The notes: generated by a model from the letters alone, not told the origin. DNA of 64,000 nucleotides from an uncultured Alphaproteobacteria bacterium (GCA_944392255.1 CALXVY010000004.1:6766-70765); one strand, 5' to 3'; positions 9,640-40,679 are shown, counted from the first letter of the stretch. Numbers and translations: made by a program.

Positions 9640-10263
9640 TTATTCTTGATTTTCATACAATTCCGATTTCTTTTTCTCCATAACGCTATATTTTTCCAAT
9701 GATGAAGTTGTGTCATCATAACCTAAATCGACATCAAAGACGCGTTGATTGTATTTTTTTTCTTGCGGAGATAATTCTAAGCCGGCAAATATTTCAAATT
9801 CATACATTTTATCTACCGGAATTTTGACATCTACGGATTTTCCTTTAAATTCTTTTCGGCGTTCATCTCTACGCATACTGGTTTCAACAAAGTATGACTT
9901 TTTGCCTAAATAAGCCGGTGGCCCTTTAATTGTATTGGTAAACCATTGAAATTGAATGTCCGTTTCATCGGTATCTCTAAGCTTATTGATTGAAAAGATT
10001 GGCGTGATTTTAGCTTTTTCTTGATTGACACGCGTGTCATAGTAGCAAAAACCTTCAAAACCGACAAACTCAATTTCAAAATTATCTTGATAATTGATAA
10101 TTTGGATTAATCTGGCATCTTCTCGTTTTATGGTTACCAACGGACATTGTTTATATCCATCCAAATCTGATGAAATGCAACCACCTATCATCAAAAGAAA
10201 TAAAAATGCATAACATATTCTCTGCATTGCACTTAACCCTATTTTTATTAATCTTAATGACAC
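9640..10263 (-). CDS. Hypothetical lipoprotein
   Basis: Signal peptide with lipobox LMIGGC. Confidence 0.5.
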   Translation of the reverse strand: MSLRLIKIGLSAMQRICYAFLFLLMIGGCISSDLDGYKQCPLVTIKREDARLIQIINYQDNFEIEFVGFEGFCYYDTRVNQEKAKITPIFSINKLRDTDETDIQFQWFTNTIKGPPAYLGKKSYFVETSMRRDERRKEFKGKSVDVKIPVDKMYEFEIFAGLELSPQEKKYNQRVFDVDLGYDDTTSSLEKYSVMEKKKSELYENQE

Positions 10264-27710: not shown

Positions 27711-28916
27711 ATGAAAATTTCAATAAAACGTGGAACTAAGGAAATTGGCGGCTCGGCTGTTGAAATAATTTCGGATAACGGGCAAAGAATTGTAGTTGAT
27801 TTAGGGCTGCCGTTAGATGCGGCCGTTAATTCGCCTGATTTATTACCTGATATTACCGGATTGACACAAAAAACTGGTGATTTGTTAGGACTGCTGATTT
27901 CCCATGCTCATCAAGATCATTATGGCTTGGGCATACATATTGACAAATCTATTCCGGTATATATGAGCAAAGAATCGTATAATATCATGAAAATTGCTCA
28001 CGAGCACAAATTGCCTAATGCTTTTGTTTTTGAAAAAACTGTTTGTTTTGACAATAAAAATACATTTCAAATCGGAGATTTTAACATTACTCCATATTTG
28101 TTTGACCATTCTGCCTATGGTGCCTATGGATTTTTAATTGAGGCTGACGGGCAAAGAGTTTTTTACAGTGGTGATTTTAGGGCCCATGGGCGCAAAAGGA
28201 AGTTATTTTATAAATTTTTGCAAAATCATCCCCAAAATATTGATGTTTTGCTTATGGAAGGTTCTTGTTTGGGACGAGAATCCTCCGAACATTATGAATA
28301 TGAACAAGATTTGGAAGTTAAGTTTTGCAACTTTTGGAAAGAAAGTTCAGGATTGGTTTTAGTTCAGGCGTCGGCACAAAATATTGACCGTATCGTTACC
28401 ATATATCGTGCGGCTAAAAAGTGTAGACGAAGGCTTGTTTTATCCGGATATGCCGGGCATATTTTATGGGGAACTAAAAATCCTAATTTACCGAACTTCA
28501 CATGGTCAGATGTTAAAAAATTTTCAACTAAGCCGCAAAAATCTCATGAAATCGGCATTGATGATATTTTAGAGAATCCTCAGAAATTTGTTATTCTGCT
28601 TGATTATCACATTAGACAAGAACTAAAAAAGCATAATGCCGTTAATGAAACAACGGCTTATGCTTATTCTATGTGGAGTGGTTATAAAGAAAAATATCAG
28701 AAATGGCTAAATTTTTTAGCTACTAAAAATGCCAAAGTTCAAGATATTCATACCTCTGGGCACGCGGATATTCCGGCTCTCAAAAAATTTGTTGCCAGCC
28801 TTAAGCCTAAGATAGTTGTTCCCATCCATACATTTTGTCCGCAAGAATTTAAGCAAATGTTTAATAATACCATTTGCTTAAACGATGGAGATATTTTTGA
28901 GCTATCCAGCAAATAA
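27711..28916 (+). CDS. MBL-fold metallo-hydrolase, beta-CASP-like nuclease
   Basis: HAHQDHYG (HxHxDH), FDHS, SGDF, LLMEGS and the C-terminal HTSGHA. Divergent from the WYL regulator. Confidence 0.8.
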   Translation: MKISIKRGTKEIGGSAVEIISDNGQRIVVDLGLPLDAAVNSPDLLPDITGLTQKTGDLLGLLISHAHQDHYGLGIHIDKSIPVYMSKESYNIMKIAHEHKLPNAFVFEKTVCFDNKNTFQIGDFNITPYLFDHSAYGAYGFLIEADGQRVFYSGDFRAHGRKRKLFYKFLQNHPQNIDVLLMEGSCLGRESSEHYEYEQDLEVKFCNFWKESSGLVLVQASAQNIDRIVTIYRAAKKCRRRLVLSGYAGHILWGTKNPNLPNFTWSDVKKFSTKPQKSHEIGIDDILENPQKFVILLDYHIRQELKKHNAVNETTAYAYSMWSGYKEKYQKWLNFLATKNAKVQDIHTSGHADIPALKKFVASLKPKIVVPIHTFCPQEFKQMFNNTICLNDGDIFELSSK

Positions 28917-29903
28917 ATCACTGTTAATTGATGTGATTTTATTTTTAGCTTCATCATAGGCAAACGTGATATATTTAAATCTTAACACATCTTGACCAAG
29001 ATGAACATCTTGAGGTTCTGATGTGATTTGATACTCACCTTTAGGAACAGCAATGCATACATTTATGGTTAGAGAATCAGGTAAATCGCTCTGATATCCA
29101 AATATTTCGTACCATTTTTTGCCTTTCTCAGGGTCTGAGCGGAGCAGTTCTCTTAAAAAGACGGCATAAGTTAAACCTTGCCCCCTAATAATGTGTGCTT
29201 GTAGTGCATTTTTTATAAAGTCTTTTTTTAGCTCTATTACACAAAGGTGGCTTTTCCCGTCTTGTTTAACTCGGGCCAAAATATCTATTCCGCCGGCACG
29301 AGCAGACTTTGACTGTCTCACTTTTTTTCCTGATGCGGACAGCACAGTTGGCATTTGAAAAGCCAATTGGCCATCGCATAATCTAACGGGTTGTATGTTG
29401 CATAATGTTTTGTCTTTAGAAATTTTCTTAGAAAATTCTTCAATTAAGGAACTTTCAAAAAGATGTTCAACTTGATTTTTTTTCTTTATATCTTGGCTGA
29501 AGTATTTTCTGAATTCGGCAGCTTCCGGTGAATTCCACTCACAAATAAGGGGCTTATTCCACCCAAAATATGTATCATTAGTCTTATCTAATTTTTTATT
29601 GGAGTATAATATTAATTTATTTTGCTTAATCTTTAAATAGGCCACACTTTGACCTTTATAGCGCAGATTAATTCCTTTACCACTGTTAATATCGCCAATA
29701 CTGGTATATAGGTTGAGATTTTTCACTTTGTGAAAACTTTTTCTAATTGTTTTTATATGATTTTCTGTTGTTTTGTCTTGAAGAGTTGTTGCATATTTTT
29801 CAAATCGGGTTTTCCAATCATCATTTTTCTGAAGCCATTTTTGGATTGTCTCAGCAATCTGTTGCAGATTAGATATGTTTCTTAAATCTATGCTGTCAGT
29901 CAT
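28902..29903 (-). CDS. Hypothetical protein with C-terminal PD-(D/E)xK nuclease-like motif
   Basis: GGIDILARV...HLCVIELKKD fits D...ExK. A GGAGA RBS sits in the 12-nt gap after the AAA+ gene. Confidence 0.5.
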   Translation of the reverse strand: MTDSIDLRNISNLQQIAETIQKWLQKNDDWKTRFEKYATTLQDKTTENHIKTIRKSFHKVKNLNLYTSIGDINSGKGINLRYKGQSVAYLKIKQNKLILYSNKKLDKTNDTYFGWNKPLICEWNSPEAAEFRKYFSQDIKKKNQVEHLFESSLIEEFSKKISKDKTLCNIQPVRLCDGQLAFQMPTVLSASGKKVRQSKSARAGGIDILARVKQDGKSHLCVIELKKDFIKNALQAHIIRGQGLTYAVFLRELLRSDPEKGKKWYEIFGYQSDLPDSLTINVCIAVPKGEYQITSEPQDVHLGQDVLRFKYITFAYDEAKNKITSINSDLFAG

Positions 29904-29915
29904 TATATATTCTCC

Positions 29916-31934
29916 TTATAAAAAGCCAATTTTATGCTGGAAGGGCGCCTTGTTTAATTGCTCGGCCTCAAGCATTTTTATCAACTCTGCTTTATTATCT
30001 AAAAGTCCTAGAATTTCTGCTTTTTGTCTGACCACCACAAAATCTCCGGGAGCTAAAGAATTGAGATATGACAAGTCTACATTAGAAAAATTAAAAAAAT
30101 GCTTAAATGCCTTACTTGATTGCTCTGCTGTCATATAATTATATCCAACTTTGAAAGTGAAACGACGTAGACTGGCTTTGTCGAGGCTATCCATTAAATT
30201 TGTGGTACAGATAAAAGGATAGGGGTAACTTTCCATTTGGGTTAGCATCTCATTAACTTGAGTTATCTCCCATGAGCGAACGGCACTGCTCCTATCTTGC
30301 AAAAAGCTATCAGCTTCATCAAAAATCAAAACGGCTTGATTTTCTCTCCCTTCATTAAAAGAATCGGCAATATTTTGCTCTGTTCCTCCGACCCACATGG
30401 ATAATAAATCGGAGCATTTCTTCTTGATAACCGGCATTTCAAGTGTTTGAGCTAAATATTCTCCATAGGCGGATTTTCCGGTGCCTGAGGCTCCATATAA
30501 ACATAAGGAAAAATTGCGTTGCGATAGTTGTTTAATCCGTTGAGCCAACAAGCTTAAATCTGTATCCGTATTGAGTAATTGTGGATTAAACTCAATCGGA
30601 GTTTTAGGTTTGGGAGGCGTATATCGACCGTTGTTATATGCTTTTTGCATGGCAGTTAGGCTTTGTTTGACCTCAGGCAAGCCACCATCAGCTAACTTGG
30701 CGGCCTTTACCGCTGTTGCGATAAAAGACGGAGATAACTGGTATTGAACGGCAAATTCCTCGGCTGTTTTTTTATCTGAGGGCAAATGGTGAGCTTTTAA
30801 GCTTTTCTGCCACATCTCTATGCGGGTTTTTAAATTGGGTTTGCTGAAATTAACCGCAAAGCTAAATCGGCGCAAATAGGCTTTATCTATATCATTGATA
30901 GAATTGATAATCCAAATAGCCGGAGTAAGATTATTTTCCAGAAGTCTATTGATATATAGCTTATTATTGTCTTTTTTGCGACAAAACAATAAGTTTTCTG
31001 CTTCTAAAAAATCATCGGCTTCATCAATCAACAAACACGAGTTCTCATCTTTTGATAAGATGGAATAGGCCAGATTGAGAGTTTCTTTGCGCGAATCATC
31101 TTCAAATTTTTCACCTACGGTATACAATGCTGCTTTGATTTTATGCGTTAAGGTTTTCGCAAATTCGGTTTTGCCGGTTCCGGGTTCGCCATAAAAAAGC
31201 AAATTTACACCTTTTTCTTTATTTTTTATGGCCTTACTTAAAATACGTGCACAGATGTTTTTTTCTTGGAGAAAAGAAAAATCGTTCCAGGATAAACCGG
31301 CAACACATTTGGGTCCTAATATAATATTTTTTATATCTTGCGTATTATTTATATTTTGAGACAATATTTTTACACTTAAATCTGAGACACTAACATCACC
31401 ATTATATTCATATTCTATCAATCCTAAGCGGGAAAGAGAGGAATTTTTATCTGATATTTCTTCTATTTTATGTTGGCTTTCTAACAGAAAAAAAGATGTG
31501 TTGTTTTTTAATTTATTATTGCGTCCGCCGACTTCACGGTTGAAATCATCAAAATTATCATCTGTCTTGACACGTACCCAGAAACCAAAAAGTTTTTGTT
31601 CTTCAACTGTCAGATTCAACAATTTTGCTAAATGATGAAGACGTTTTTCTAAAATAGAATCAGGGCTATTTTGCAGCATAGCGACTTTTTTATTAAGGGC
31701 TGTAACAAATCTTTTACCAATTTCAAAAGCTTGTTTTTTCTTGGTACGCAATATGTCTTTGAAATCAGTGCCATTTTCTTCTTCAATTTTACTTGTCCAT
31801 AAAAATTTGATAATATTTTTGCCATAATTGTCATGCCAATCGTAAATATTCGATAAATGTTCTTGAAAAAAACTTTTGTTTTTTGAGGCATTTAGCAAAT
31901 AATAAAGCATTTTATATTGTTCATATTTTTCCAT
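29916..31934 (-). CDS. Double AAA+ ATPase (two classical AAA modules) with ~240 aa unassigned N-terminal domain
   Basis: Module 1: Walker A GEPGTGKTE, Walker B LLIDEADDF, Arg-finger region AYLRRFSF. Module 2: GASGTGKSA, LIFDEADSF, ASLRRFTF. Confidence 0.85.
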   Translation of the reverse strand: MEKYEQYKMLYYLLNASKNKSFFQEHLSNIYDWHDNYGKNIIKFLWTSKIEEENGTDFKDILRTKKKQAFEIGKRFVTALNKKVAMLQNSPDSILEKRLHHLAKLLNLTVEEQKLFGFWVRVKTDDNFDDFNREVGGRNNKLKNNTSFFLLESQHKIEEISDKNSSLSRLGLIEYEYNGDVSVSDLSVKILSQNINNTQDIKNIILGPKCVAGLSWNDFSFLQEKNICARILSKAIKNKEKGVNLLFYGEPGTGKTEFAKTLTHKIKAALYTVGEKFEDDSRKETLNLAYSILSKDENSCLLIDEADDFLEAENLLFCRKKDNNKLYINRLLENNLTPAIWIINSINDIDKAYLRRFSFAVNFSKPNLKTRIEMWQKSLKAHHLPSDKKTAEEFAVQYQLSPSFIATAVKAAKLADGGLPEVKQSLTAMQKAYNNGRYTPPKPKTPIEFNPQLLNTDTDLSLLAQRIKQLSQRNFSLCLYGASGTGKSAYGEYLAQTLEMPVIKKKCSDLLSMWVGGTEQNIADSFNEGRENQAVLIFDEADSFLQDRSSAVRSWEITQVNEMLTQMESYPYPFICTTNLMDSLDKASLRRFTFKVGYNYMTAEQSSKAFKHFFNFSNVDLSYLNSLAPGDFVVVRQKAEILGLLDNKAELIKMLEAEQLNKAPFQHKIGFL

Positions 31935-32015
31935 AAAAACATCTCCTTTACATTCAATGTTTTTATTATAAATGATTGATGCGTCAATTTTTGTCGTGCA
32001 AAGGTAGAAAGTAAG

Positions 32016-32351
32016 TTATTTCCTTTTTAACTTAAATGAATCTAAAAATTTTAGAAGGTCTTGTTGAGAGGATTCATCTAATAAAGATATTTTATTAATT
32101 AGGTTCTCATTGGTGTTTACAATGGCTTCGGCTTTTTCGGATATAAGTTGTACGAGATCAATATCCAAGGCATATAGGATTTTATATAAAGTATAAGCTC
32201 TTGGGTTTTGTTTGCGATTTTCAATCAGATTAACGGAAGAATAATCAGCGTTGCTTAATTCTGCTAATTTTTCACAGGAAAGTTTTTTATTATTGCGTTG
32301 TTTTCTTATAATCTTACCGATTTCATTAAGAAAATCTTCTTCATTTAACAT
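32016..32351 (-). CDS. XRE-family helix-turn-helix regulator
   Basis: HTH_3-like segment IRKQRNNKKLSCEKLAELSNADYSSVNLIENRKQNP. Confidence 0.8.
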   Translation of the reverse strand: MLNEEDFLNEIGKIIRKQRNNKKLSCEKLAELSNADYSSVNLIENRKQNPRAYTLYKILYALDIDLVQLISEKAEAIVNTNENLINKISLLDESSQQDLLKFLDSFKLKRK

Positions 32352-32547
32352 TGTGTAAATCCCATAAAATTTATATGAGATTATACAATTGCTGTTTTTC
32401 TTATCTATTGTGTGAAGCCAATAAAATATTGTTGACTACTGCTTTATTTCAATTACTCTGATTATATAGCAGATTTTGATGTGACATATTTTGACATGGG
32501 CAAGGTTTATTATTTTGAATGAGTTACACTAAATAAAGGAGATTATC

Positions 32548-33330
32548 ATGCGTAGAGATTTAACATTATATAAGTTAGAGTTTCCAGATCAGGATAAGTT
32601 AGAAGAATATTGGAATAAAAGATATTCAAGCGACTTTCACACCGAGGTTTTGGGAAGAATTAACAATCGCTCAAATAGCTTAAAATCTAAATGTGGTAAA
32701 ATTTATGAGATTAATGATGAAATTCTAAAAGATATTTTTGGAAGCCACAAAAATAATAATGAAAGATGCCTTGGTTGGACATACTTTAAGGTTAAACTGT
32801 TAAATGATTTTTACAGCACAGGAATCCAAGATATTTATACGGTTGTTGAAGATATGATAAAAATCAAAAATCTTGATGAAAATATTAAAAATGGCGATTT
32901 TCAAGCTGTAAACGAAATAAGAGATATTTTTAAGAAAAACAAAGAAAACAAAAACAGCCGTGATATTTATTCTTTTGCCACTAAATTCTGCCATTTTTCA
33001 AATCCGGACAAGTTTTCTATTTATGATCGTTATGTCGCTTATTTATTAAAGGACTATATTATAAAATGGAAAGATAAATTTACTTCCGCCTTTATTAAAT
33101 ATAATGAAACATCTAAAGAAAATAAGATTAAGATTGATAAACCGACAGCAAGTGCACTTTTAACCGCTATGAGAGATTATACATTCTTTATGAATGTGGT
33201 TGATTTGTTTATGAGTAATTGCAAAATTTCTAAACGAAATTCAAGAGCTAAAGTAGACAATTACCTTTGGTTAGCGGGAATGATGAAATATCGTGAAGGA
33301 AGTAAAGTTGCACAAGATTATAAAAATTAA
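32548..33330 (+). CDS. Hypothetical protein
   Basis: 260-aa ORF with a GGAG RBS, divergent from the XRE gene. The motif SFATKFCHFSNPDKFSIYDRYV vaguely recalls OGG-fold proteins of conflict systems; this is unverified. Confidence 0.5.
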   Translation: MRRDLTLYKLEFPDQDKLEEYWNKRYSSDFHTEVLGRINNRSNSLKSKCGKIYEINDEILKDIFGSHKNNNERCLGWTYFKVKLLNDFYSTGIQDIYTVVEDMIKIKNLDENIKNGDFQAVNEIRDIFKKNKENKNSRDIYSFATKFCHFSNPDKFSIYDRYVAYLLKDYIIKWKDKFTSAFIKYNETSKENKIKIDKPTASALLTAMRDYTFFMNVVDLFMSNCKISKRNSRAKVDNYLWLAGMMKYREGSKVAQDYKN

Positions 33331-33677: not shown

Positions 33678-33854
33678 TAGAATATCCTTTGTTTTCTCAG
33701 CATATAAAAGAAATTTGCTTATCCCTATATCCATTTATCAAAAACATTCAAAATCTCGTTATATGTGAAGGAAATGCAAGCTATTTTAGACTATTAATAA
33801 AATATTTTATTTTTAATGGTATTGCTTTATCATAAAAGGGCAAAGGAGCATCCT

Positions 33855-34766
33855 ATGGAAAAGCAAATAATAGAAGTTTCGAACGATGGATTTTCTTTAT
33901 TTTTACATAGAGGTTTTATAGTTATCGAGAACAAAAATATTCCGATAGAAACAAAAATTCCATTGGATAATATTTTGTCTTTAGTGATTAGTGCTAATGA
34001 TTTGATACTTTCTAAAAATGTAATAAATGCCATAACAGAACAAGGGGCAAATATTATTTGTTGTGGTAAAAATTATGTTCCTTCTTCAATTATAATTCCT
34101 TGCGAGGGGCATTGGCTAGTCGCCTCAAGAGTTCAAAATCAAATAGAATGTTCTAAACCTTTACAGAAAAATTTATGGAAGAGTATTATTCAAAATAAAA
34201 TTTATAACCAATCTAAAATTTTAGAGTTCTTTTTTCCCAATCATAGTAATATTGCACGACTTAAACAATTAGCCAAGAATACGCTCAGCAATGATGTGCG
34301 AAATAATGAAGGGTTGGCTGCTTCAATTTATTTCAAATCGTTATTTGGTAAGAATTTTGTACGAGATAGATTAAGCGGCGACGTTAATATTTTATTGAAC
34401 TATGCTTACATAGTTCTTAGAGCTATGGTTATAAGAGCAATTTATGGTAATGGATTATTACCTTTTTTAGGATTAAAGCATTGTGCTAAAACCAACACAT
34501 TTCCTTTGGCTGATGACTTAATGGAACCGTTTAGACCGTGGGCTGACAAATTAGTATTTGAGGAAATAAATAGACTTGTTAATATTCAAGATATTGAATT
34601 GACACCGGAAATAAAACGAAGATTAACTGGACTGATTTCTATTCCCGTCAAGACCGGCAAGGGTTGTGTTTCGTTAAATGATGCTGTGTTTGATTTTGTA
34701 GGAAGTTTGGTCGTCAGTTTTGAAGATAAAAAAGTTAAATTAAAATATCCAGAGTTTGAAGATTAA
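33855..34766 (+). CDS. cas1: CRISPR-associated endonuclease Cas1 (type II)
   Basis: Cas1 hallmarks NEGLAASIYFKSLFG, NILLNYAYIVLRAMV and DDLMEPFRPWAD. AAGGAG RBS before the Met at 33855 (the ORF track opens at 33816). Confidence 0.9.
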   Translation: MEKQIIEVSNDGFSLFLHRGFIVIENKNIPIETKIPLDNILSLVISANDLILSKNVINAITEQGANIICCGKNYVPSSIIIPCEGHWLVASRVQNQIECSKPLQKNLWKSIIQNKIYNQSKILEFFFPNHSNIARLKQLAKNTLSNDVRNNEGLAASIYFKSLFGKNFVRDRLSGDVNILLNYAYIVLRAMVIRAIYGNGLLPFLGLKHCAKTNTFPLADDLMEPFRPWADKLVFEEINRLVNIQDIELTPEIKRRLTGLISIPVKTGKGCVSLNDAVFDFVGSLVVSFEDKKVKLKYPEFED

Positions 34767-34795
34767 GTTGATTTATATTGAAGGAGGTTCTTATT

Positions 34796-35050
34796 ATGAC
34801 TGTTTATAAACGTTCAAAACTAACTTCCGAAATTCTTAAGCAGTGGGAACGTGATGCGCAATATGATAAAATTTATGAAACTGCGCCGACACTTTTCGAT
34901 TTATCTATGATTATCAGTGAAAAAACAGATGGTAAAGTTGATATAAGAGAAGACGGTGAAATTTGGGTCGATGATTGGCCATATGGTTATTGGCGCAAGC
35001 AAGGTGATATGTATGTTCATTACATTCCTGGGAGATTATCAACTCGATGA
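34796..35050 (+). CDS. Unassigned 84-aa protein encoded between cas1 and the CRISPR array
   Basis: Strong RBS GAAGGAGG 8 nt upstream of the ATG at 34796. The ORF ends 31 nt before repeat 1. No family recognised. Confidence 0.55.
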   Translation: MTVYKRSKLTSEILKQWERDAQYDKIYETAPTLFDLSMIISEKTDGKVDIREDGEIWVDDWPYGYWRKQGDMYVHYIPGRLSTR

Positions 35051-35081
35051 GTTGGAATAGTTCGAAATTTTGATGAAAAAA

Positions 35082-35447
35082 GTTATAGTTGACCGTCTAA
35101 TTAATCTCTGATACGTTAAGCAGTGCAACTAGGCTCTGACGGCTTAAGTTATAGTTGACCGTCTAATTAATCTCTGATACGTTAAAGCAACTGGAGAGAG
35201 AAAAGATAGAACAGTTATAGTTGACCGTCTAATTAATCTCTGATACGTTCTTCCAAAAATGCTGTGTTCAATAGTTCTTGTTATAGTTGACCGTCTAATT
35301 AATCTCTGATACGTTATCTTTGACAACAAATCAGCTGAAATGGCAGTTATAGTTGACCGTCTAATTAATCTCTGATACGTTCCGTAAGCTGGCAGGAATA
35401 TTCGGACTTGAGTTATAGTTGACCGTCTAATTAATCTCTGATACGTT
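35082..35447 (+). CRISPR. Type II-C CRISPR array: 6 identical 36-nt repeats and 5 spacers of 30 nt
   Basis: Repeat GTTATAGTTGACCGTCTAATTAATCTCTGATACGTT at 35082, 35148, 35214, 35280, 35346 and 35412. Plus-strand orientation is inferred from the GTTATAG 5' end and from tracrRNA complementarity. Confidence 0.95.
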
Positions 35448-35458
35448 AGATAATAGAT

Positions 35459-35492
35459 CAAAGCCTTGAAATAACTAGTTTTCAAGGCTTTG
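35459..35492. terminator. 12-bp hairpin between the array end and the cas2 stop (convergent terminator candidate)
   Basis: Stem caaagccttgaa / ttcaaggctttg with a 10-nt loop. There is no strong U-tract on either side. Confidence 0.45.
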
Positions 35493-35522
35493 TCTTAATA
35501 AAAAAATGTTATTTGTTTATCC

Positions 35523-35885
35523 CTAAAAAAGCAATAATTGTCCATTTTTTTCTCGAATTTCTTCTTCATTATCTTCAAAATTCTTACCTAAATAGTTCTC
35601 TGTCATTAGATATTGTTTATCGGTAATATAAATAAACGATACCGAAGAATTATCGGGTATGAATTTGGATAACTTTTTAGTTAAAGTTTGCCCAACCGAC
35701 AAACTCTTAACCGGTTTGATGTAAACGGAAAACTGCTTCATCATAAAACCTTCATCAATCAGGAGATTGCGAAAGCGAGTGGCTTTGCGCATCTCGGTTC
35801 GAGTTCTGACTGGTATGTCAAACATACAGATTATCCACATCATTGACCAGCAGGTTAAGGTTTCACGCCGCTTTTGTCGAGCCAT
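35523..35885 (-). CDS. cas2: CRISPR-associated endoribonuclease Cas2
   Basis: Ferredoxin-like Cas2 N-terminus MWIICMFDIP...FRNLLIDEGFMMKQFSVY. The true start may be the Met-Met at 35843, in which case there is no overlap with cas9. Confidence 0.85.
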   Translation of the reverse strand: MARQKRRETLTCWSMMWIICMFDIPVRTRTEMRKATRFRNLLIDEGFMMKQFSVYIKPVKSLSVGQTLTKKLSKFIPDNSSVSFIYITDKQYLMTENYLGKNFEDNEEEIREKNGQLLLF

Positions 35886-38800
35886 TGCTCAATACCTTGT
35901 GTTTCTTTTTTATTTTCCCAAATGGGGTTAATTCTATTTTTCTCACTCTATATTTGCATAACCATTGTAAGCTCTTATCTTCTAATAGAACTGGAAGCAT
36001 ATACTTCGGTTTGCTATTAGCATTTTCTCCATTTCTTGCATCATTTGATAGTTTTATTCCTAATTGGTTTCTTCCAAATCTAAACTTAACAATTTCAGCA
36101 ATACAACGTTGTTTATCTGTATATTCTTTCCATTCTTCTGGGGTATTCAATTCAAGCAAATCACCTTGCTGCACAGACCATATGATTTTTCCTCCATCAT
36201 GTTGCCATTGTGGAACAAAATCTTTTTGGTTTATGTCAAAAAGCCTAATTACTTCGCCATTGATTTTTTCATTTTGCTCATAAACTTCCAAACAATAATT
36301 ATTCCGCCCTTCATACGCAACGCCATGCTTGGGGATATAAACTAATGAAGAATTGTTTTCATAACTCCTAAATTTATCGCCTTTCCATAATTTTTTCTCT
36401 TGAATGAGATAAAAAGCCCTAGTTAAAATACGGCTTTCGGTGATGGAAATTTCTTTTTTTCCTTCAGATGCGGCTTTTTCGTTTTCAGCAATCAGAATTT
36501 GCTCGGCTGTATTTGCATAAAGTTCAAAGTCTTTGACTAATTGAGCTTGTTTGGTTTTGTCTTTGGCAATATGTTCATTCCACTCATCTTTGATAGAATC
36601 GGGAATGAGCAATTTATTTAAGTCTTTCATTGACTTAACAACTTGTAATATCTTGCGTGAATAAACCGTGATTAAGAATTTGCTGTCATCCGGGTTTATG
36701 CATAAAACCGTTCTACCGGTTTCTTTATGGAGTTTTCCAGCTTTGCTGTGTTCGGGCTTGTGCGAAACGTTAACCTTACTTAATACTTCAATCACTTGGC
36801 GGCGAAATTCTCCGACTGACTCAATACTTGTTAACGGAAGAGGTACATGCTGATGCGGTAAATCGATTTCATTAGCCATATGCTGGATCAGGGAACGATT
36901 CATACAAGCAACAGTTATGGCATCCATGGCGTGATGACGATGGTCAATTCTGGGCTTTGATACCCATTCTTTGTTCTTAGTTTTATCAAAAAATCTCCAT
37001 TTGCCGTCAACATTAGGTTGTTCTATTCCTTCAATAACTTCTCCGGTATCTTGCTCAACCCAATAAGGAGAACAATTTACATATCTTGGAATATCCAATC
37101 CCATGAGATCATATTCCAAACCTTCCAAATTCCAACAACGACGCATATGAGCGGTTTGAGCTCCTTTAACCGGAAGAATCCGATTATGAATCACTTCTTC
37201 ACTATCTGGGCTATCAACAATTGCTCTTAAATATCGTGCTGCCATTTTGGATACATAACGTGTATCTGTCAGATAACGCGTAGTTTCTTCTACATCTCCT
37301 TCATCTTCGAATTTTTCGCGAGCGTCGGCCTCAAAACGCCATGCTTTGGCAGGTGTTCTCTCTCGGGCATTTTTCAGAATTTCTCGGATAAGTTCTTCTG
37401 GTTTTTGACCTTTGCTAACAAAGTAATCATAGGCAAAATCATTCCCTTTAGCATTATTATCATTGCGGTTTACCAGGCAAAGGTTGTTATAGGTATCCGT
37501 TCCGCCTTTAGCTTGAGGAATAATATGTTCTATTTCAAAACCGGAAAAATTACGGGGAATGCTAACCGTTGGGTCGTAGGCATCTTTCCATCCTTGTTCC
37601 TTGGCAAGTTTATATTTTAAGATATTTTGATAATTGATGAAAAGTTTATGGTCTTTTAAGTATTTTTTTGCTTCTTCGTTAAGTTTTTCATTGTTTTTTT
37701 GCTTTTGTTCTTCTTGTTTTTTCTTCTTGGTTGACATACCAACATCTCGACCAAGCTCAATGTTAATGTCATAAGGTTTGCCGTAAATGCGAATTATATC
37801 ATTAATCACCAAGCGGAGTTGATTTAGAATCATATGAACTGACGGATTGGCTATTTTTCCCCATTTTATTTCATCGGGGTTAAGATTTTTGTTGTTTTTG
37901 ACCATTAATGGTGGAAGCGGTTGTGTATCAGCCTGCAAAATCTCGCCATAATATGGAAGTTCTTGACATTTACCTTGAGTTTTGCGCGCAATCTCTTCCG
38001 AGGCAATAAAACGGGCATCATTCTTGGCTAAATCATCGGTTATTTCTCGATGCGTAATGACTTGTTCTTTTAATTTTTCTAAAATAATTTTCGAGGCACT
38101 TTCGCCCAACATTCCTCGTCCTTTGGGAAGTTTGGTCAGCAGTTTGCCGATTTCTTTATCATCATTAATTTTTAAAATCGGCTTAAGATGATTAATCAAT
38201 TCATCCTCGCTGTATAAACGTCCGTTTTTATCATTCGAATTTATCGGATTAGCTAAAAAATCAACAAATTTTGCCAATTCTTCATCTGAGAGTTTTTGTA
38301 TATATTCTATTTCTGAAAATTCTGGACGTGAGTATAAATAAGCCTTGATATTTTTATCATCAAGTAAAGATATTTTTTGTTGAGCTGAAAGACCTAATAA
38401 TTTTTTGATAGCTGATTTTCCTGCATTTTTGCCTTGCAGTAAAAGCTCGTTGATGATTTTATCTCTTTCTTCTAAAGTCAGCTTGCGTTTATTGGTGTCG
38501 CTTAATACACGGATATTATTTACTTCTTCATAAATACGTCTTAATTCTGATAATGGATGTGCTTTCAGCAGTCTGTCTTCATCTTTGAAATAAATACATT
38601 TTCCGGTAGCATAAGGAGCTGGTGGACGCTCATAAAATAAGATATTATAAATTTCTTTTTTCAAACCTTCTTTTTGCATTTGAGTAAAATATTGAGCCTG
38701 CGTATCCCAGATTTGATTAAATTCATCTTTTACCAGATAGCGGGGAATTGCATAATCAACAATATGTTGTTTTAAGGCGTGTTCTTTTTGTCGTATTATT

Positions 38801-39375
38801 CTTTTGTTAGCGTTTGTTTTTACTCCATTTTTATCTTTTTCGTATCCTTCGCAAATTCGTTTGTAAAAAAACTCACCAATTGTTTTAGAATTTGTTTCTT
38901 TTAAATGCTCGGACATCATATCGTAAGCTGATTTTTTAGCTTTGGATTTTTCACCTTCTTCTAAAATTTCTTCTTGTAACTCTTCAGAGGCAGTTACGAA
39001 TCCGGCACCACGGTGCTTGGCTATATGTAGGATGGCTCGTCCTATATAATTAGGGTTAGACAGCCTACCATTTAATGCGTCATTGCGAATCTTATAAGGA
39101 GATTTTGCACGTAAATGCCCTGTTCCTTCTGGGGTATTATTTACCCAAAGATGGTTTTCAAAAAGTTTTTGCGCTAATAATTCTAATCGTTGGCGGGTGC
39201 GGACCTGATTTTTGCGCATTGTTCGTTTGAGGCGACGTTCTTCAGCTCCTTCAGAAACATTAAAAATACGAACTCCGGCATCGATAATCTTTTGAGGATT
39301 GTTATAATCATCTAACTCAATAATTGCGCTACCGATGGAGCCAACACCCAAATCTAAACCCAAACGATACTTCAT
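35863..39375 (-). CDS. cas9: Cas9 (type II-C), ~1170 aa
   Basis: RuvC-I LGLDLGVGSIGSA, RuvC-II DINIELGRD, HNH EIEHIIPQAKGGTDTYNNLCLVNRNDNNAKGN and RuvC-III HHAMDAITVA. An AAGGAG RBS favours the Met at 39375 (the track opens at 39381). Confidence 0.95.
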   Translation of the reverse strand: MKYRLGLDLGVGSIGSAIIELDDYNNPQKIIDAGVRIFNVSEGAEERRLKRTMRKNQVRTRQRLELLAQKLFENHLWVNNTPEGTGHLRAKSPYKIRNDALNGRLSNPNYIGRAILHIAKHRGAGFVTASEELQEEILEEGEKSKAKKSAYDMMSEHLKETNSKTIGEFFYKRICEGYEKDKNGVKTNANKRIIRQKEHALKQHIVDYAIPRYLVKDEFNQIWDTQAQYFTQMQKEGLKKEIYNILFYERPPAPYATGKCIYFKDEDRLLKAHPLSELRRIYEEVNNIRVLSDTNKRKLTLEERDKIINELLLQGKNAGKSAIKKLLGLSAQQKISLLDDKNIKAYLYSRPEFSEIEYIQKLSDEELAKFVDFLANPINSNDKNGRLYSEDELINHLKPILKINDDKEIGKLLTKLPKGRGMLGESASKIILEKLKEQVITHREITDDLAKNDARFIASEEIARKTQGKCQELPYYGEILQADTQPLPPLMVKNNKNLNPDEIKWGKIANPSVHMILNQLRLVINDIIRIYGKPYDINIELGRDVGMSTKKKKQEEQKQKNNEKLNEEAKKYLKDHKLFINYQNILKYKLAKEQGWKDAYDPTVSIPRNFSGFEIEHIIPQAKGGTDTYNNLCLVNRNDNNAKGNDFAYDYFVSKGQKPEELIREILKNARERTPAKAWRFEADAREKFEDEGDVEETTRYLTDTRYVSKMAARYLRAIVDSPDSEEVIHNRILPVKGAQTAHMRRCWNLEGLEYDLMGLDIPRYVNCSPYWVEQDTGEVIEGIEQPNVDGKWRFFDKTKNKEWVSKPRIDHRHHAMDAITVACMNRSLIQHMANEIDLPHQHVPLPLTSIESVGEFRRQVIEVLSKVNVSHKPEHSKAGKLHKETGRTVLCINPDDSKFLITVYSRKILQVVKSMKDLNKLLIPDSIKDEWNEHIAKDKTKQAQLVKDFELYANTAEQILIAENEKAASEGKKEISITESRILTRAFYLIQEKKLWKGDKFRSYENNSSLVYIPKHGVAYEGRNNYCLEVYEQNEKINGEVIRLFDINQKDFVPQWQHDGGKIIWSVQQGDLLELNTPEEWKEYTDKQRCIAEIVKFRFGRNQLGIKLSNDARNGENANSKPKYMLPVLLEDKSLQWLCKYRVRKIELTPFGKIKKKHKVLSNGSTKAA

Positions 39376-39471
39376 AAACATCTCCTTGTCTTATTGTTGT
39401 GCAACCATGTATAAAACAACTTATAATACTGCTCTTGACTTTTCAATCAAAATATTCTTATATTATAATAA

Positions 39472-39574
39472 TATATGTTTTGATTTTTTCAGAGATTAAT
39501 TAGACGGTCAATACATATATAATAAGGCTTTATGCCGCAAAATGAGGGGGTGAGTGATTGCCCCCATTATTTTT
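39472..39574 (+). ncRNA. tracrRNA (5' end approximate)
   Basis: The 22-nt anti-repeat cagagattaattagacggtcaa (39490-39511) is perfectly complementary to repeat positions 8-29. It is followed by a nexus-like AAGGCUUUAUGCCG and a terminator ggggg-N10-ccccc plus U-tract (39546-39574). Candidate promoter TTGACT(39435)-18-TATATT(39459). Confidence 0.7.
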
Positions 39575-40679
39575 ATATGTTATCAAAAATAATCGGATAT
39601 TTCCGAAGGAATTTTTGGAAGAGCAGGGTTGCTTCTTTGTTATCTAAAGTTTTGGGAAGTTTGAGGGTAACGCTATCGGTATTAACTTGTTTGCCAGAAG
39701 TATCAATAATGCAATATTTGTTATTTACGGCAACAAAAGCTTGCCCATTATAAAATTGTCCGATCTTATCAAAAATTATCGGAATGATGATTTTTCCGGT
39801 ATTGTCCATATATCCCCAGTGATTATGTTGTGAAGTCGGTTTAAGCTCTTCTTGGTTGTTTGCTTCTGTAGAAATATTAATACTTTTATCGGGAAGACCT
39901 TTAACTCGGTATTTACCATCTTCATCTCTGAATATGACTTTTCCGTTGAGAGTTATATCTTCAACCGACTTATTGGCAAAATTGATTATTTCCTTGCCTT
40001 GATAGTCAATAATTGTCTGCCAAGAATAGGCTTTGCCTAAATATTCAAAACTCCTTTTTATGCACCAATATTTACCGTTAGACCAATAGTCCTCAATATT
40101 TTCCAGATTAAAATTATATTGGTTTTGTAAGTGTTTTATTCGACATTTTCTTAAATTTAACAGTTTGTTTTTGGCATAATCGGCAATATTTGAGTTATCG
40201 GTTGTTAAATTTACCCAATTTTCTACAGGTGTATTGCTTTTGATTATGGCATTGTAGAAGTCATCAAACAGCTTTTTATCGAATGTATGTTTCAGGCAAA
40301 ATTCTTCAAAACCATGCTGATTTACATATTCTTTCAAATCTTCCGGTACAAATGCGGCAAGATTATACATATAATTAAATAAGTCGTATTTCTTATATTT
40401 AAGTAGAACGGAGATATATTCAGGAGAGTGAGGCTTGTTTCTGGGTAAAAGTTTCAAAATTCGTGAAATAGCAGCTTTGGACAGCAGGTTACTTTCACGT
40501 TCTAATTTGTTTTTACCAAGAGTTATACGCATTGGCTTTGCAAGGGTAAATTTTATATAATAAAAAAAGGGTAAAGCAAATTCCAGACAACAACAGTAAT
40601 CGCCGTTTGCCTGTTTTTGACTGTAAACTTTTATCCATTTGTGAATATATAAATCCTTATATAAATGTTTTTTAGTCAT
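39573..40679 (-). CDS. WG-repeat-containing hypothetical protein
   Basis: The C-terminal segment HWGYMDNTGKIIIPIIFDKIGQFYNGQAFVAVNNKYCIIDTSGKQV matches the WG beta-repeat pattern. Confidence 0.5.
   Translation of the reverse strand: MTKKHLYKDLYIHKWIKVYSQKQANGDYCCCLEFALPFFYYIKFTLAKPMRITLGKNKLERESNLLSKAAISRILKLLPRNKPHSPEYISVLLKYKKYDLFNYMYNLAAFVPEDLKEYVNQHGFEEFCLKHTFDKKLFDDFYNAIIKSNTPVENWVNLTTDNSNIADYAKNKLLNLRKCRIKHLQNQYNFNLENIEDYWSNGKYWCIKRSFEYLGKAYSWQTIIDYQGKEIINFANKSVEDITLNGKVIFRDEDGKYRVKGLPDKSINISTEANNQEELKPTSQHNHWGYMDNTGKIIIPIIFDKIGQFYNGQAFVAVNNKYCIIDTSGKQVNTDSVTLKLPKTLDNKEATLLFQKFLRKYPIIFDNI

What the first reader, a model, noticed from the sequence alone, without database searches (positions are those of the whole stretch)
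34778..35050. Unassigned 84-aa gene in the csn2/cas4 position between cas1 and the array
Type II-C loci are defined by having only cas9, cas1 and cas2. Here a compact ORF (MTVYKRSKLTSEILKQWERDAQYDK...WVDDWPYGYWRKQGDMYVHYIPGRL) has one of the strongest RBSs in the window (GAAGGAGG). It starts 30 nt after cas1 and ends 31 nt before the first repeat. That is the position of the fourth adaptation gene in II-A (csn2) and II-B (cas4). It could be a new adaptation accessory. It could equally be a locus-embedded anti-CRISPR or autoregulator (II-C Acrs are of similar size), or an unrelated hitchhiker.
Basis: partly seen in the sequence, partly recalled or inferred. Interest (0 to 1): 0.65.

Follow-up and report, generated by a model that had tools for sequence, protein, structure and literature searches.

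The report
Phage gene captured beside cas1
The small gene between cas1 and the CRISPR array is real, but it is a phage early gene captured in one narrow clade of gut Alphaproteobacteria, not a missing fourth adaptation gene, and the phages that carry its relatives are targeted by this same Cas9 system.

Summary
An 84-aa ORF (ATG 34796 to stop 35050) with a strong Shine-Dalgarno site lies 29 nt after cas1 and 31 nt before the first of six 36-nt repeats. It is a real gene: 19 close homologues, dN/dS about 0.2, and a confident alpha/beta model with no known fold or family. It is not a csn2/cas4 analogue. The locus reads cas1 > ORF > array < cas2 < cas9. Relatives with the same layout lack the ORF, and in them the cas1 stop codon abuts or overlaps the first repeat. 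Within the ORF-bearing clade the gene was lost twice, frameshifted once, and is truncated in the window. The family is otherwise a phage family. It sits among the small early genes of tailed-phage contigs, where its C-terminal KI(I/V)RGPWK motif is conserved; most host copies have lost that motif. One host allele still carries phage intergenic DNA plus the RBS and ATG of the next phage gene, so transfer ran from phage to host. Spacers from sister loci match these phages with a consistent PAM. The most likely reading is a domesticated phage early protein, a candidate anti-CRISPR family, now a dispensable accessory. Its function is untested.

The parts
33816..34766 (+). cas1 (type II). Homologues start at the ATG at 33855, giving 303 aa.
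   Evidence: PF01867 at 2.2e-28 and TIGR03639 cas1_NMENI at 1.5e-71. There are 226 homologues.
34761..34771 (+). GATTAAGTTGA, which spans the cas1 stop codon and matches 8 of the first 11 nt of the repeat. It may be a remnant of the ancestral junction between cas1 and the first repeat. The evidence is weak.
   Evidence: My own reading. In ORF-less relatives the cas1 stop lies inside or directly against the first repeat.
34780..34787 (+). Shine-Dalgarno site GAAGGAGG, 8 nt upstream of the ATG.
   Evidence: A GGAGG at this position is conserved in host loci L009, L011 and L021; L001 has only AAAGGA there.
34796..35050 (+). ORF84, a phage-derived orphan alpha/beta protein. This is the C-terminally truncated host allele.
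35051..35092 (+). Vestigial continuation of the ORF frame (VGIVRNFDEKSYS*) behind the premature TGA. It runs into repeat 1 and is homologous to the tails of the intact host alleles.
35082..35447 (+). CRISPR array: six 36-nt repeats and five 30-nt spacers. The crRNA sense strand is +. Each repeat contains TTGACC-N17-TACGTT, a promoter-like arrangement as in other type II-C arrays.
   Evidence: Orientation follows from the tracrRNA anti-repeat. Repeat-embedded promoters in type II-C are described in PMC12477760.
35459..35492 (-). Terminator-like hairpin between the array and cas2. It is conserved, with compensatory changes, across lineages.
35523..35885 (-). cas2, which overlaps the end of cas9 by 23 nt.
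   Evidence: PF09827 at 3.7e-15 and TIGR01573 at 3.7e-17.
35863..39381 (-). cas9 (1172 aa).
   Evidence: TIGR01865 at 2.6e-140, plus RuvC_III and HNH domains.
39478..39575 (+). Predicted tracrRNA. It has promoter-like hexamers (39435-39469), an anti-repeat TCAGAGATTAATTAGACGGTCAA (39489-39511), a nexus-like AAGGCTTTATGCCG, and a terminator GGGGGTGAGTGATTGCCCCC followed by a T-run (39546-39575).
   Evidence: The same anti-repeat lies upstream of cas9 in L001 and between cas1 and cas9 in L023.

Best explanation
ORF84 is a domesticated copy of a phage early gene. Its family is a set of roughly 95-aa orphan proteins with one alpha/beta core, a conserved N-terminus M(T/P)V(Y/F)KRSxLT, and, in phages, a conserved flexible C-terminal motif KI(I/V)RGPW(K/N). 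The family sits in the block of small early genes of a group of tailed phages.

Shown: one copy was inserted in the ancestor of a narrow clade of AT-rich Alphaproteobacteria; the window's own lineage is found in bird-gut and chicken-gut metagenomes. The insertion went into the essentially zero-length junction between the cas1 stop codon and the first (degenerate) repeat of a type II-C array.

Inferred: with no predicted terminator before it and a strong SD site, the copy is expressed on the cas1 transcript.

Shown: it is real and under purifying selection. It is dispensable and is not part of the core type II-C machinery. DNA flowed from phage to host. Host alleles are mosaic with phage alleles. 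The phages that carry it are targeted by this CRISPR-Cas9 system.

Inferred: in the phage the protein is an early host-takeover or anti-defence factor, a candidate anti-CRISPR against this Cas9 or Cas1-Cas2, that works by protein binding through its conserved termini. The host copy kept the core and N-terminus but lost constraint on the phage C-terminal motif. It therefore most likely acts as a defanged competitor or decoy, or as a mild modulator, in the phage-CRISPR conflict. The closest analogy is the host AcrIIA1-NTD 'anti-anti-CRISPR' copies that sit next to cas loci.

My confidence by step: phage origin and insertion history about 0.85; any role in the phage-CRISPR conflict about 0.4; the decoy mechanism specifically about 0.2.
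For: The gene is real. It has 19 homologues. Host dN/dS is 0.18-0.26 at dS 0.4-1.0, against 0.05-0.09 for cas1, with p = 2e-6. AF2 gives pLDDT 80 and 84.8.

The family is a phage family. P0008, P0011, P0012, P0017 and IMG/VR locus L016 lie in contigs with TerL, portal (1.7e-92), major head (8.9e-90), TerS and primase genes, inside runs of small ORFs. The most divergent relatives (30-57% identity; their genomic context was not looked up) keep the C-terminal motif.

The host context is cas1-ORF-array-cas2-cas9 in the window, L001-3, L009/10, L011-15 and L021/22.

The gene is an insertion. ORF-less loci L026, L028-30 and L031-33 have the cas1 stop inside or against repeat 1. In the Cas1 tree the ORF-less L028 is sister to ORF-bearing L001 at dS 0.26.

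Transfer ran from phage to host. After its stop codon, L009 keeps TAAGGAGTGCAAAAC(T)ATG, which is the phage L006 intergenic region plus the RBS and ATG of the next phage gene. The 3' half of L009 is phage-like, including a shared indel. A cas1-linked contig in run X21 continues with phage-type ...EAQQEIIYS. ORF GC content lies between phage and host values.

The phages are targets. A spacer from L032/33 matches L004-8 at 29/30, L019 at 28/30 and L016 at 23/23 (28/30 over its full length). Two L031 spacers match L017/18 or L006. The 3' flanks are N4ATAC or N4ACAA, resembling the type II-C N4RYAC PAM.

The tail motif is relaxed or lost in host alleles and truncated in the window.

There is a precedent: host AcrIIA1-NTD homologues next to cas loci (bioRxiv 10.1101/787200).
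Against: There is no functional data and no expression data.

The association with cas genes goes back to a single ancestral insertion, so it is not replicated evidence of functional linkage. A site downstream of cas1 at the array edge may simply be a safe harbour where an inserted gene gets expressed.

The gene was lost twice, frameshifted once and truncated once, so any benefit is weak or conditional.

The protein has no HTH domain and no similarity to any known Acr, Aca or Cas protein. No aca-like gene lies next to the phage copies.

Many other small early genes in these phages could be the true anti-CRISPR.

None of the 66 spacers in the ORF-bearing arrays I hold matches the roughly 115 kb of these phages that I hold.
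Confidence: 0.45

Rival explanations
1. Passenger with a function unrelated to CRISPR. The phage gene landed in a permissive, transcribed site at the 3' end of the cas1 transcript. It is kept for some other benefit, such as superinfection exclusion or interference with phage takeover of another host process, or it is only slowly decaying.
For: There was a single insertion event. The gene was lost in L028-30 and L031-33, frameshifted in L011-15 and truncated in the window. The C-terminal motif conserved in phages is not conserved in hosts. The locus sits in a defence island, so any anti-phage gene would fit there.
Against: dN/dS of about 0.2 across dS up to about 1 rules out simple neutrality. 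The rest of this reading is hard to separate from the best explanation without experiments.
Confidence: 0.25
2. Active anti-CRISPR or autoimmunity brake embedded in the locus. The host copy still inhibits Cas9 or Cas1-Cas2 and tempers the system from within the cas1 operon.
For: The homologues are phage early genes in phages that this system targets. The protein is small and mostly acidic, with pI 4.6-5.4 in most alleles. It is probably co-transcribed with cas1, since no terminator was found between them.
Against: In ORF-bearing lineages cas1 stays under strong purifying selection (dN/dS 0.05-0.09) and cas9, cas1 and cas2 stay intact. Their arrays carry lineage-specific spacer sets (66 unique spacers). 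Window spacers 4 and 5 have perfect matches in co-occurring contigs of run X5, so immunity looks to be in use. The motif conserved in phage copies is lost in most host copies. No self-targeting spacer occurs within the 64-kb window.
Confidence: 0.15
3. New adaptation accessory, a functional analogue of csn2 or cas4, that works with Cas1-Cas2 at the adjacent repeat.
For: It lies immediately downstream of cas1 and against the array in five host lineages, under purifying selection.
Against: It is absent from the outgroup with the same architecture and from two nested lineages whose arrays turn over completely between strains that are 99.4-99.8% identical in the cas1-side flanks, so adaptation works without it. 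The degenerate repeat at this end suggests the trailer end of the array, not the acquisition end. The gene is of phage origin. It has no Csn2 or Cas4 signature.
Confidence: 0.07
4. Gene-sized mis-integration by the adaptation machinery. Cas1-Cas2 integrated a fragment of about 340 bp from the phage early region at a repeat boundary, like an oversized spacer, and the gene was then kept. This rival concerns how the gene arrived, not what it does.
For: The right-hand junction falls at a repeat boundary in every lineage. The fragment is one gene cassette, running from the RBS to the ATG of the next gene. Known protospacers lie 0.2-1.5 kb from the phage copy.
Against: Only 8 of 11 nt upstream of the ORF resemble a repeat, so no flanking repeat duplication is visible. 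The degenerate repeat suggests this is the trailer end. Homologous or illegitimate recombination explains the junctions equally well.
Confidence: 0.1
5. Not a protein gene: a conserved leader or an RNA element.
For: It abuts the array, and in L001 and L011 its stop codon overlaps repeat 1.
Against: Substitutions are mostly synonymous, the reading frame is kept across phage and host copies at saturated dS, the structure model is confident, and Rfam finds nothing there.
Confidence: 0.02

Closest known systems
[quoted passage not shown]
   Same: A short host copy of a protein otherwise found in phage anti-defence or early regions. It is encoded beside cas genes and lacks the C-terminal part that the phage versions carry.
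   Different: AcrIIA1-NTD is an HTH repressor of acr promoters with demonstrated activity. ORF84 has no HTH domain, belongs to an unrelated orphan fold, has no tested activity, and its association traces to a single insertion.
Type II-C anti-CRISPRs AcrIIC1 to AcrIIC5
   Same: Similar size (84-130 aa), encoded by mobile elements that face type II-C Cas9, and with no conserved family signature.
   Different: There is no sequence or fold similarity to any solved structure. The known AcrIIC proteins are not embedded in cas operons. Inhibition has not been tested here.
Csn2 (type II-A) and Cas4 (type II-B) fourth adaptation genes
   Same: An extra gene adjacent to adaptation genes and the array in a type II locus.
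   Different: As I recall, Csn2 is a protein of about 220-350 aa that forms a DNA-end-binding ring, and Cas4 is a RecB-like nuclease with an Fe-S cluster. Both are conserved across their subtypes. ORF84 is 84-105 aa, has neither signature, comes from a phage, and is patchy even among near-identical loci.
Canonical type II-C loci (Neisseria meningitidis, Campylobacter jejuni)
   Same: cas9, cas1 and cas2 only; a tracrRNA; 36-nt repeats that carry their own promoter-like sequences; an N4RYAC-like PAM.
   Different: Here cas1 is split from cas9-cas2, lies on the other side of the array and converges on it. In relatives its stop codon overlaps the first repeat.
Viral homologues of cas genes used as anti-CRISPRs (for example bioRxiv 10.1101/2023.06.24.545427, seen by title and abstract only)
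   Same: The same protein family is shared between a cas locus and phages that the system attacks.
   Different: In that case the direction is host cas gene to virus. Here the evidence points from phage to host, and the gene is not a known cas family.

Membership tests
Csn2 (type II-A) | Match to the Csn2 protein families (Pfam or NCBIfam models) and a size of about 220-350 aa | tested here: not met
   There are no Pfam or NCBIfam hits at E<=1. The protein is 84 aa, and relatives are 94-105 aa.
Csn2 / Cas4 | Conserved presence across loci of the subtype, as a core adaptation component | tested here: not met
   The gene is absent from L026, L023-25, L028-30 and L031-33. It is frameshifted in L011-15.
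Cas4 (type II-B) | PD-(D/E)XK RecB-like nuclease domain with a four-Cys cluster | tested here: not met
   There is no Pfam or NCBIfam hit. The window protein contains no cysteine. Foldseek finds no nuclease match.
Known anti-CRISPR families (AcrIIC1-5, AcrIIA and others with solved structures) | Sequence or fold similarity to a characterised Acr | tested here: not met
   The PDB profile search gives a best E of 0.63, to unrelated enzymes. Foldseek against PDB and BFVD finds nothing below E = 0.03. PADLOC and PHROGs give nothing significant.
Anti-CRISPR (operational definition) | A small protein encoded by a mobile element or phage that is exposed to the cognate CRISPR system | tested here: met
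   The phage copies lie in early-gene blocks. Those phages carry PAM-flanked protospacers for this system.
Anti-CRISPR (operational definition) | Inhibits CRISPR-Cas interference or adaptation | not testable with these tools
   This needs interference, acquisition and binding assays.
Anti-CRISPR (operational definition) | Adjacent aca-type HTH regulator gene | tested here: not met
   The phage neighbours scanned with PHROGs have no HTH or Aca match, and the precomputed Pfam annotations show none for the flanking genes. The nearest HTH_17 gene is several kb away on the other strand.
Co-opted 'anti-anti-CRISPR' (AcrIIA1-NTD type) | HTH DNA-binding domain homologous to the phage acr-locus repressor | tested here: not met
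   There is no HTH by Pfam. The model is a two-helix, multi-strand alpha/beta fold.
Co-opted 'anti-anti-CRISPR' (AcrIIA1-NTD type) | A host copy beside the cas locus that lacks the phage protein's C-terminal module | tested here: met
   The host tails are diverged or truncated, whereas the phage motif KI(I/V)RGPWK is conserved. The gene lies next to cas1.
Type II-C CRISPR-Cas (the surrounding system) | cas9 + cas1 + cas2 without csn2 or cas4; a tracrRNA; repeat-embedded promoters | tested here: met
   The cas genes are identified. Each repeat contains TTGACC-N17-TA(C/T)G(T/C)T. The gene order is non-canonical.

The most novel reading that the evidence does not exclude
The cas1/array junction of this type II-C clade is a recurrent exchange point with the phages the system attacks. 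A phage early gene, itself a new anti-CRISPR family, was captured there, possibly by the adaptation machinery or by recombination guided by spacer-protospacer homology. It has since been repeatedly overwritten by phage alleles. It is retained as a protein-level countermeasure, a decoy or 'anti-anti-CRISPR', expressed from the cas1 operon. That would be a CRISPR locus storing a whole phage gene as immunity rather than a 30-nt spacer.
Probability: 0.15. Interest if true: 0.85.

Novelty: new variant of a known kind. Interest (0 to 1): 0.55.

Why it matters
If the phage protein inhibits this Cas9 or Cas1-Cas2, this is a new anti-CRISPR family against a compact type II-C Cas9, found by an unusual route: a homologue embedded in a cas locus. 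If the host copy counteracts the phage protein, it would be a second, non-HTH example of hosts co-opting phage anti-defence genes beside their CRISPR loci. Either way the locus offers natural with/without alleles. L001 versus L028 share the same chromosomal site and differ by cas1 dS of only 0.26, and truncated, frameshifted and phage-mosaic alleles also exist, so the question can be tested directly. The clade also shows an unreported type II-C layout, with cas1 separated from cas9-cas2 and its stop codon overlapping the terminal repeat.

Tried and rejected
1. Family assignment failed. Pfam, NCBIfam, PHROGs and PADLOC gave no significant hit; the best was PDC-M13C at E = 0.042. PDB sequence search, Foldseek against PDB (twice) and Foldseek against BFVD gave nothing.

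2. The exhaustive HMMER search added only 7 true relatives. The large proteins P0027-29 are spurious repeat or compositional hits, for example EcKL kinases.

3. Collection scans were mostly empty. JGI metagenome contigs gave none. GenBank phages and PLSDB plasmids gave none. The GTDB genomes gave one locus, L015, a MAG labelled Alphaproteobacteria. IMG/VR gave one phage, L016.

4. I tested whether arrays are static when the ORF is present, which would mean the insertion or the protein blocks adaptation. ORF-less pairs L028/L029 and L031/L032 share no spacers at 99.4-99.8% identity in the cas1-side flanks (the L028/L029 cas2-cas9 side is only 95% identical), while ORF-bearing L021/L022 share all five. 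However, run X5 carries the window allele with a different first spacer. I reject the idea as unsupported, and the sample is too small.

5. I tested whether the ORF is an oversized spacer flanked by repeats. Only 8 of 11 nt upstream resemble a repeat. I keep this only as a low-confidence rival.

6. I looked for self-targeting that would justify a brake. There is none within the 64-kb window.

7. Window spacers 4 and 5 are not in IMG/VR. Their perfect matches in X5 contigs could not be retrieved, and the flanks of those matches are not in the phage pieces I hold.

8. Expression evidence was not obtainable. No clear RNA run exists, and X15, X21 and X22 are diverged strains of uncertain library type.

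10. Array polarity remains unsettled. The degenerate repeat at the cas1/ORF end in every lineage, and (from memory) the Neisseria model, favour this being the trailer end. The variable first spacer in X5 argues the other way.

Full report
OBSERVATION. The longest frame runs 34778-35050. The ATG at 34796 gives the quoted 84-aa protein, and GAAGGAGG sits 8 nt upstream. cas1 ends at 34766, 29 nt before the ATG. The first of six identical 36-nt repeats starts at 35082, 31 nt after the stop, and the spacers are 30 nt long. Cas1, Cas2 and Cas9 are securely identified.

LOCUS ANATOMY. The layout is not the canonical cas9-cas1-cas2-array. cas9 (35863-39381) and cas2 (35523-35885) lie on the minus strand and overlap by 23 nt, with no cas1 between them. 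The array follows. cas1 and the ORF lie on the plus strand on the other side and converge on the array. A 23-nt perfect anti-repeat lies at 39489-39511 on the plus strand. It is preceded by promoter-like hexamers and followed by a nexus-like sequence and a GC-rich hairpin with a T-run. This is a typical type II-C tracrRNA, and it fixes the crRNA sense strand as plus. Each repeat contains TTGACC-N17-TA(C/T)G(T/C)T, consistent with the repeat-embedded promoters described for type II-C (PMC12477760). Transcription from cas1 and the ORF therefore runs in the same direction as the array. No terminator-like site was found between cas1, the ORF and repeat 1.

THE GENE IS REAL BUT AN ORPHAN. It has 19 homologues at 61-96% identity, all metagenomic. 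An exhaustive HMMER scan of 1.8 billion cluster representatives added only seven more distant true relatives. Among host copies dN/dS is 0.18-0.26 at dS 0.4-1.0. For the window versus L001, the excess of synonymous change gives p = 2e-6. For the same pairs cas1 has dN/dS of 0.05-0.09. AlphaFold2 predicts a compact alpha/beta domain of two helices and a four- to five-stranded sheet. Mean pLDDT is 80 for the window allele and 84.8 for a phage allele, and the C-terminal tail is flexible. No Pfam, NCBIfam, PHROG or PADLOC family matches, nor does any PDB sequence or any Foldseek target in PDB or BFVD. GenBank phages and PLSDB plasmids hold no copy.

TWO KINDS OF HOME. Host context: the same cas1-ORF-array-cas2-cas9 arrangement occurs in L001-3, L009/10, L011-15 and L021/22. 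Cas1 homologues and the one GTDB genome are labelled MAG Alphaproteobacteria. Runs that hold the window sequence are chicken-gut, bird-gut and faecal metagenomes.

Phage context: P0008, P0011, P0012, P0017 and the IMG/VR locus L016 lie in contigs of 40-54 kb. These encode a large terminase, a portal (1.7e-92), a major head protein (8.9e-90), a small terminase and a primase. The homologue sits in a co-oriented run of about 15-20 small unannotated ORFs next to the divergent junction with the packaging and structural block. Phage copies, and the most distant relatives (whose context was not looked up), share a C-terminal KI(I/V)RGPW(K/N) motif and the N-terminal M(T/P)V(Y/F)KRSxLT. Host copies keep the N-terminus and the core. 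Their tails, however, have diverged to xIVxNxDxE-like sequences or are cut off. The window allele has a TGA 11 codons early, and the old frame then reads VGIVRNFDEKSYS* into repeat 1. That allele is identical in contigs of runs X1, X2 and X9; the X5 contig differs at two positions upstream (34656 and 34855, the latter inside the ORF) but not at the stop codon. It belongs to a 7-member cluster.

IT IS AN INSERTION AND IT IS DISPENSABLE. L026 has a Cas1 65% identical to the window's and the same convergent layout, but no ORF. Its cas1 stop is followed at once by a degenerate first repeat. L023-25 (Cas1 70% identical) are arranged cas1-cas9-cas2-array. Closer relatives also lack the ORF. In L028-30 (Cas1 83% identical, same chromosomal neighbourhood as L001) the cas1 stop codon TAG lies inside repeat 1. 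In L031-33 (81% identical) the last Cas1 codons and the stop are read from the repeat itself. tblastn finds no remnant of the ORF in these loci. In a Cas1 tree the ORF-less L028 is sister to ORF-bearing L001 (dS 0.26), and both ORF-less groups are nested among ORF-bearing loci. ORF divergence broadly tracks cas1 divergence. The parsimonious history is one gain followed by at least two clean losses. In L011-15 a 5-nt deletion shifts the frame after codon 20, identically in five contigs from different samples. Adaptation does not need the gene: ORF-less strains that are 99.4-99.8% identical in the cas1-side flanks share no spacers at all.

DIRECTION OF TRANSFER. Immediately after its stop codon, host allele L009 carries TAAGGAGTGCAAAAC(T)ATG. 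That is the intergenic sequence, RBS and start codon of the next gene in phage L006. The L009 sequence then breaks into the repeat. L009 is nearly identical to the window allele for its first 62 codons or so. After that it switches to an L006-like sequence, including a shared insertion and the RGPWK tail. Since L009 is the window's sister by cas1 (dS 0.29), this is a secondary replacement by phage DNA. A contig from run X21 links cas1 to an ORF that continues with the phage-type ...EAQQEIIYS. Run X22 has cas1, a diverged ORF, a single repeat and cas2. X21 also holds an ORF-less joint. ORF GC content is 0.45-0.51 in phages and 0.36-0.41 in hosts, whose loci are at 0.34-0.37. Together with the greater diversity of the relatives outside the cas loci and the ORF-less outgroups, this supports flow from phage to host, with repeated recombination at this site.

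THE PHAGES ARE TARGETS OF THIS SYSTEM. A spacer from L032/33, AATAACGCTTGACATTGTTTAACAAGTTTG, matches phages L004-8 at 29/30, L019 at 28/30 and L016 at 23/23 (28/30 over its full length). The site is a conserved promoter-like sequence (TTGACA-N17-TAAAAT) that lies 0.2-1 kb downstream of the phage ORF. Two L031 spacers match L017/18 and L006 less well, with 3-5 mismatches. The 3' flanks are N4ATAC, N4ATAC and N4ACAA, which recalls the N4RYAC PAM of C. jejuni Cas9 (from memory). Window spacers 4 and 5 have perfect matches inside other contigs of run X5, so the window's system appears to be in use.

WHAT IT IS NOT. It is not Csn2 and not Cas4: it has no such signature, no cysteine, the wrong size, and is not conserved across the subtype. 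It does not belong to any known Acr or Aca family, and it is not an HTH regulator. The 'csn2/cas4 position' argument also weakens because every lineage has a degenerate repeat at this end of the array (ACT..., ATGATAA..., an internal deletion, or cas1 coding sequence) while the cas2-proximal repeat is perfect. That pattern usually marks the trailer end. From memory, the Neisseria type II-C leader is also at the cas-proximal, transcriptionally downstream end. I could not settle polarity, because X5 shows a different first spacer.

MECHANISM. Shown: phage origin, the insertion site, purifying selection, dispensability, loss of the phage-specific tail motif in host copies, mosaicism with phage alleles, and CRISPR targeting of the donor phages. 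Inferred: the phage protein is an early anti-defence or takeover factor that binds a partner through its conserved, flexible termini, and an anti-CRISPR role is the obvious candidate. The host copy is expressed behind cas1 and has lost constraint on the C-terminal motif. It is therefore more likely a defanged competitor or decoy, or a mild modulator, than an active inhibitor. The reasons are that the cas genes stay under strong selection and arrays keep changing where it is present. The closest precedent is the host AcrIIA1-NTD homologues beside cas loci (bioRxiv 10.1101/787200), although those are HTH repressors. The main rival is that the site is merely a safe, transcribed harbour and the retained function has nothing to do with CRISPR. 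One ancestral insertion cannot distinguish the two.

VERDICT. The adaptation-gene reading is rejected. The anti-CRISPR, regulator or hitchhiker reading is partly supported and is sharpened to a domesticated phage early gene from phages that this type II-C system targets. Interest is moderate (0.55): the family is new, the evolutionary story is clear, and natural alleles make it testable, but no function has been shown.

Noticed in passing
window 39478-39575 (+): A predicted type II-C tracrRNA diverges from cas9. It has promoter-like hexamers, a 23-nt perfect anti-repeat (39489-39511), a nexus-like AAGGCTTTATGCCG and a terminator hairpin with a T-run. The 3' end overlaps the stop region of the neighbouring minus-strand gene (39573-40679).
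   Followed up: partly
window 33816-39381; loci L026, L028, L031, L023: The type II-C gene order is non-canonical. cas1 is separated from cas9-cas2 and converges on the array. In relatives the cas1 stop codon lies inside the first repeat (L028), or the last Cas1 codons are read from the repeat (L031/32). A sister clade (L023-25) is arranged cas1-cas9-cas2-array, with the anti-repeat between cas1 and cas9.
   Followed up: partly
window 35082-35447: Every repeat contains TTGACC-N17-TACGTT (TATGCT in other lineages) preceded by TGA, a full promoter-like arrangement. crRNAs are therefore probably transcribed from within the repeats, as in Neisseria and Campylobacter.
   Followed up: no
window 27711-33330: There is defence-island-like content upstream of cas1: an MBL-fold protein (27711-28916), a 333-aa ORF, a 672-aa double AAA+ ATPase with IetA-like PADLOC hits (4e-34), an XRE-type HTH protein (32016-32351) and a 260-aa ORF whose L011 homologue carries PF27257. 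WYL and PDDEXK_4 genes flank the same block in L009 and L011.
   Followed up: no
window 35316-35345 and 35382-35411 (spacers 4 and 5): Both spacers have perfect 30-31-nt matches inside other contigs (2.5 and 3.9 kb) of metagenome run X5, which also holds this organism. These are presumably current phage or plasmid targets. They are not in IMG/VR and could not be retrieved.
   Followed up: partly
phage loci L004:1872-1901, L006:10518-10547, L016:1147-1176, L019:11111-11140: The protospacer hit by the L032/33 spacer is a conserved promoter-like element, TTGACATTGTTTAACAAGTTTGTAAAAT, in the phage early region, followed by a PAM-like N4ATAC. Similar TTGACA...TATAAA elements directly follow the ORF in L016, L017 and L019.
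   Followed up: partly
L031:7554-11055: In one ORF-less lineage cas9 is called as two pieces (95 aa and 935 aa) separated by a gap of about 400 nt, whereas the 99.8%-identical L032 has an intact 1166-aa cas9. This may be a recent disruption of cas9 or an assembly error.
   Followed up: no
window 35459-35492 (-) and equivalents in L001, L009, L011, L031: The hairpin between the last repeat and cas2 is conserved with compensatory changes (AAAGCCTTGAAA...TTTCAAGGCTTT versus CACCTTGAAA...TTTCAAGGTG). It may be the cas9-cas2 terminator, part of the array's leader, or both.
   Followed up: no
L009:6543-6611 and run X22 contig 14: Two ORF-bearing strains appear to have an array reduced to a single repeat between the ORF and cas2. 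This could be assembly collapse or real array loss.
   Followed up: no
L019:8861-9145 and 9724-9996; L004:607-879: In two phages a 90-aa ORF ends 2-4 nt before the homologue's ATG, which suggests translational coupling. L019 also has another 94-aa ORF nearby. Neither has any family match, and neither was compared with ORF84.
   Followed up: no
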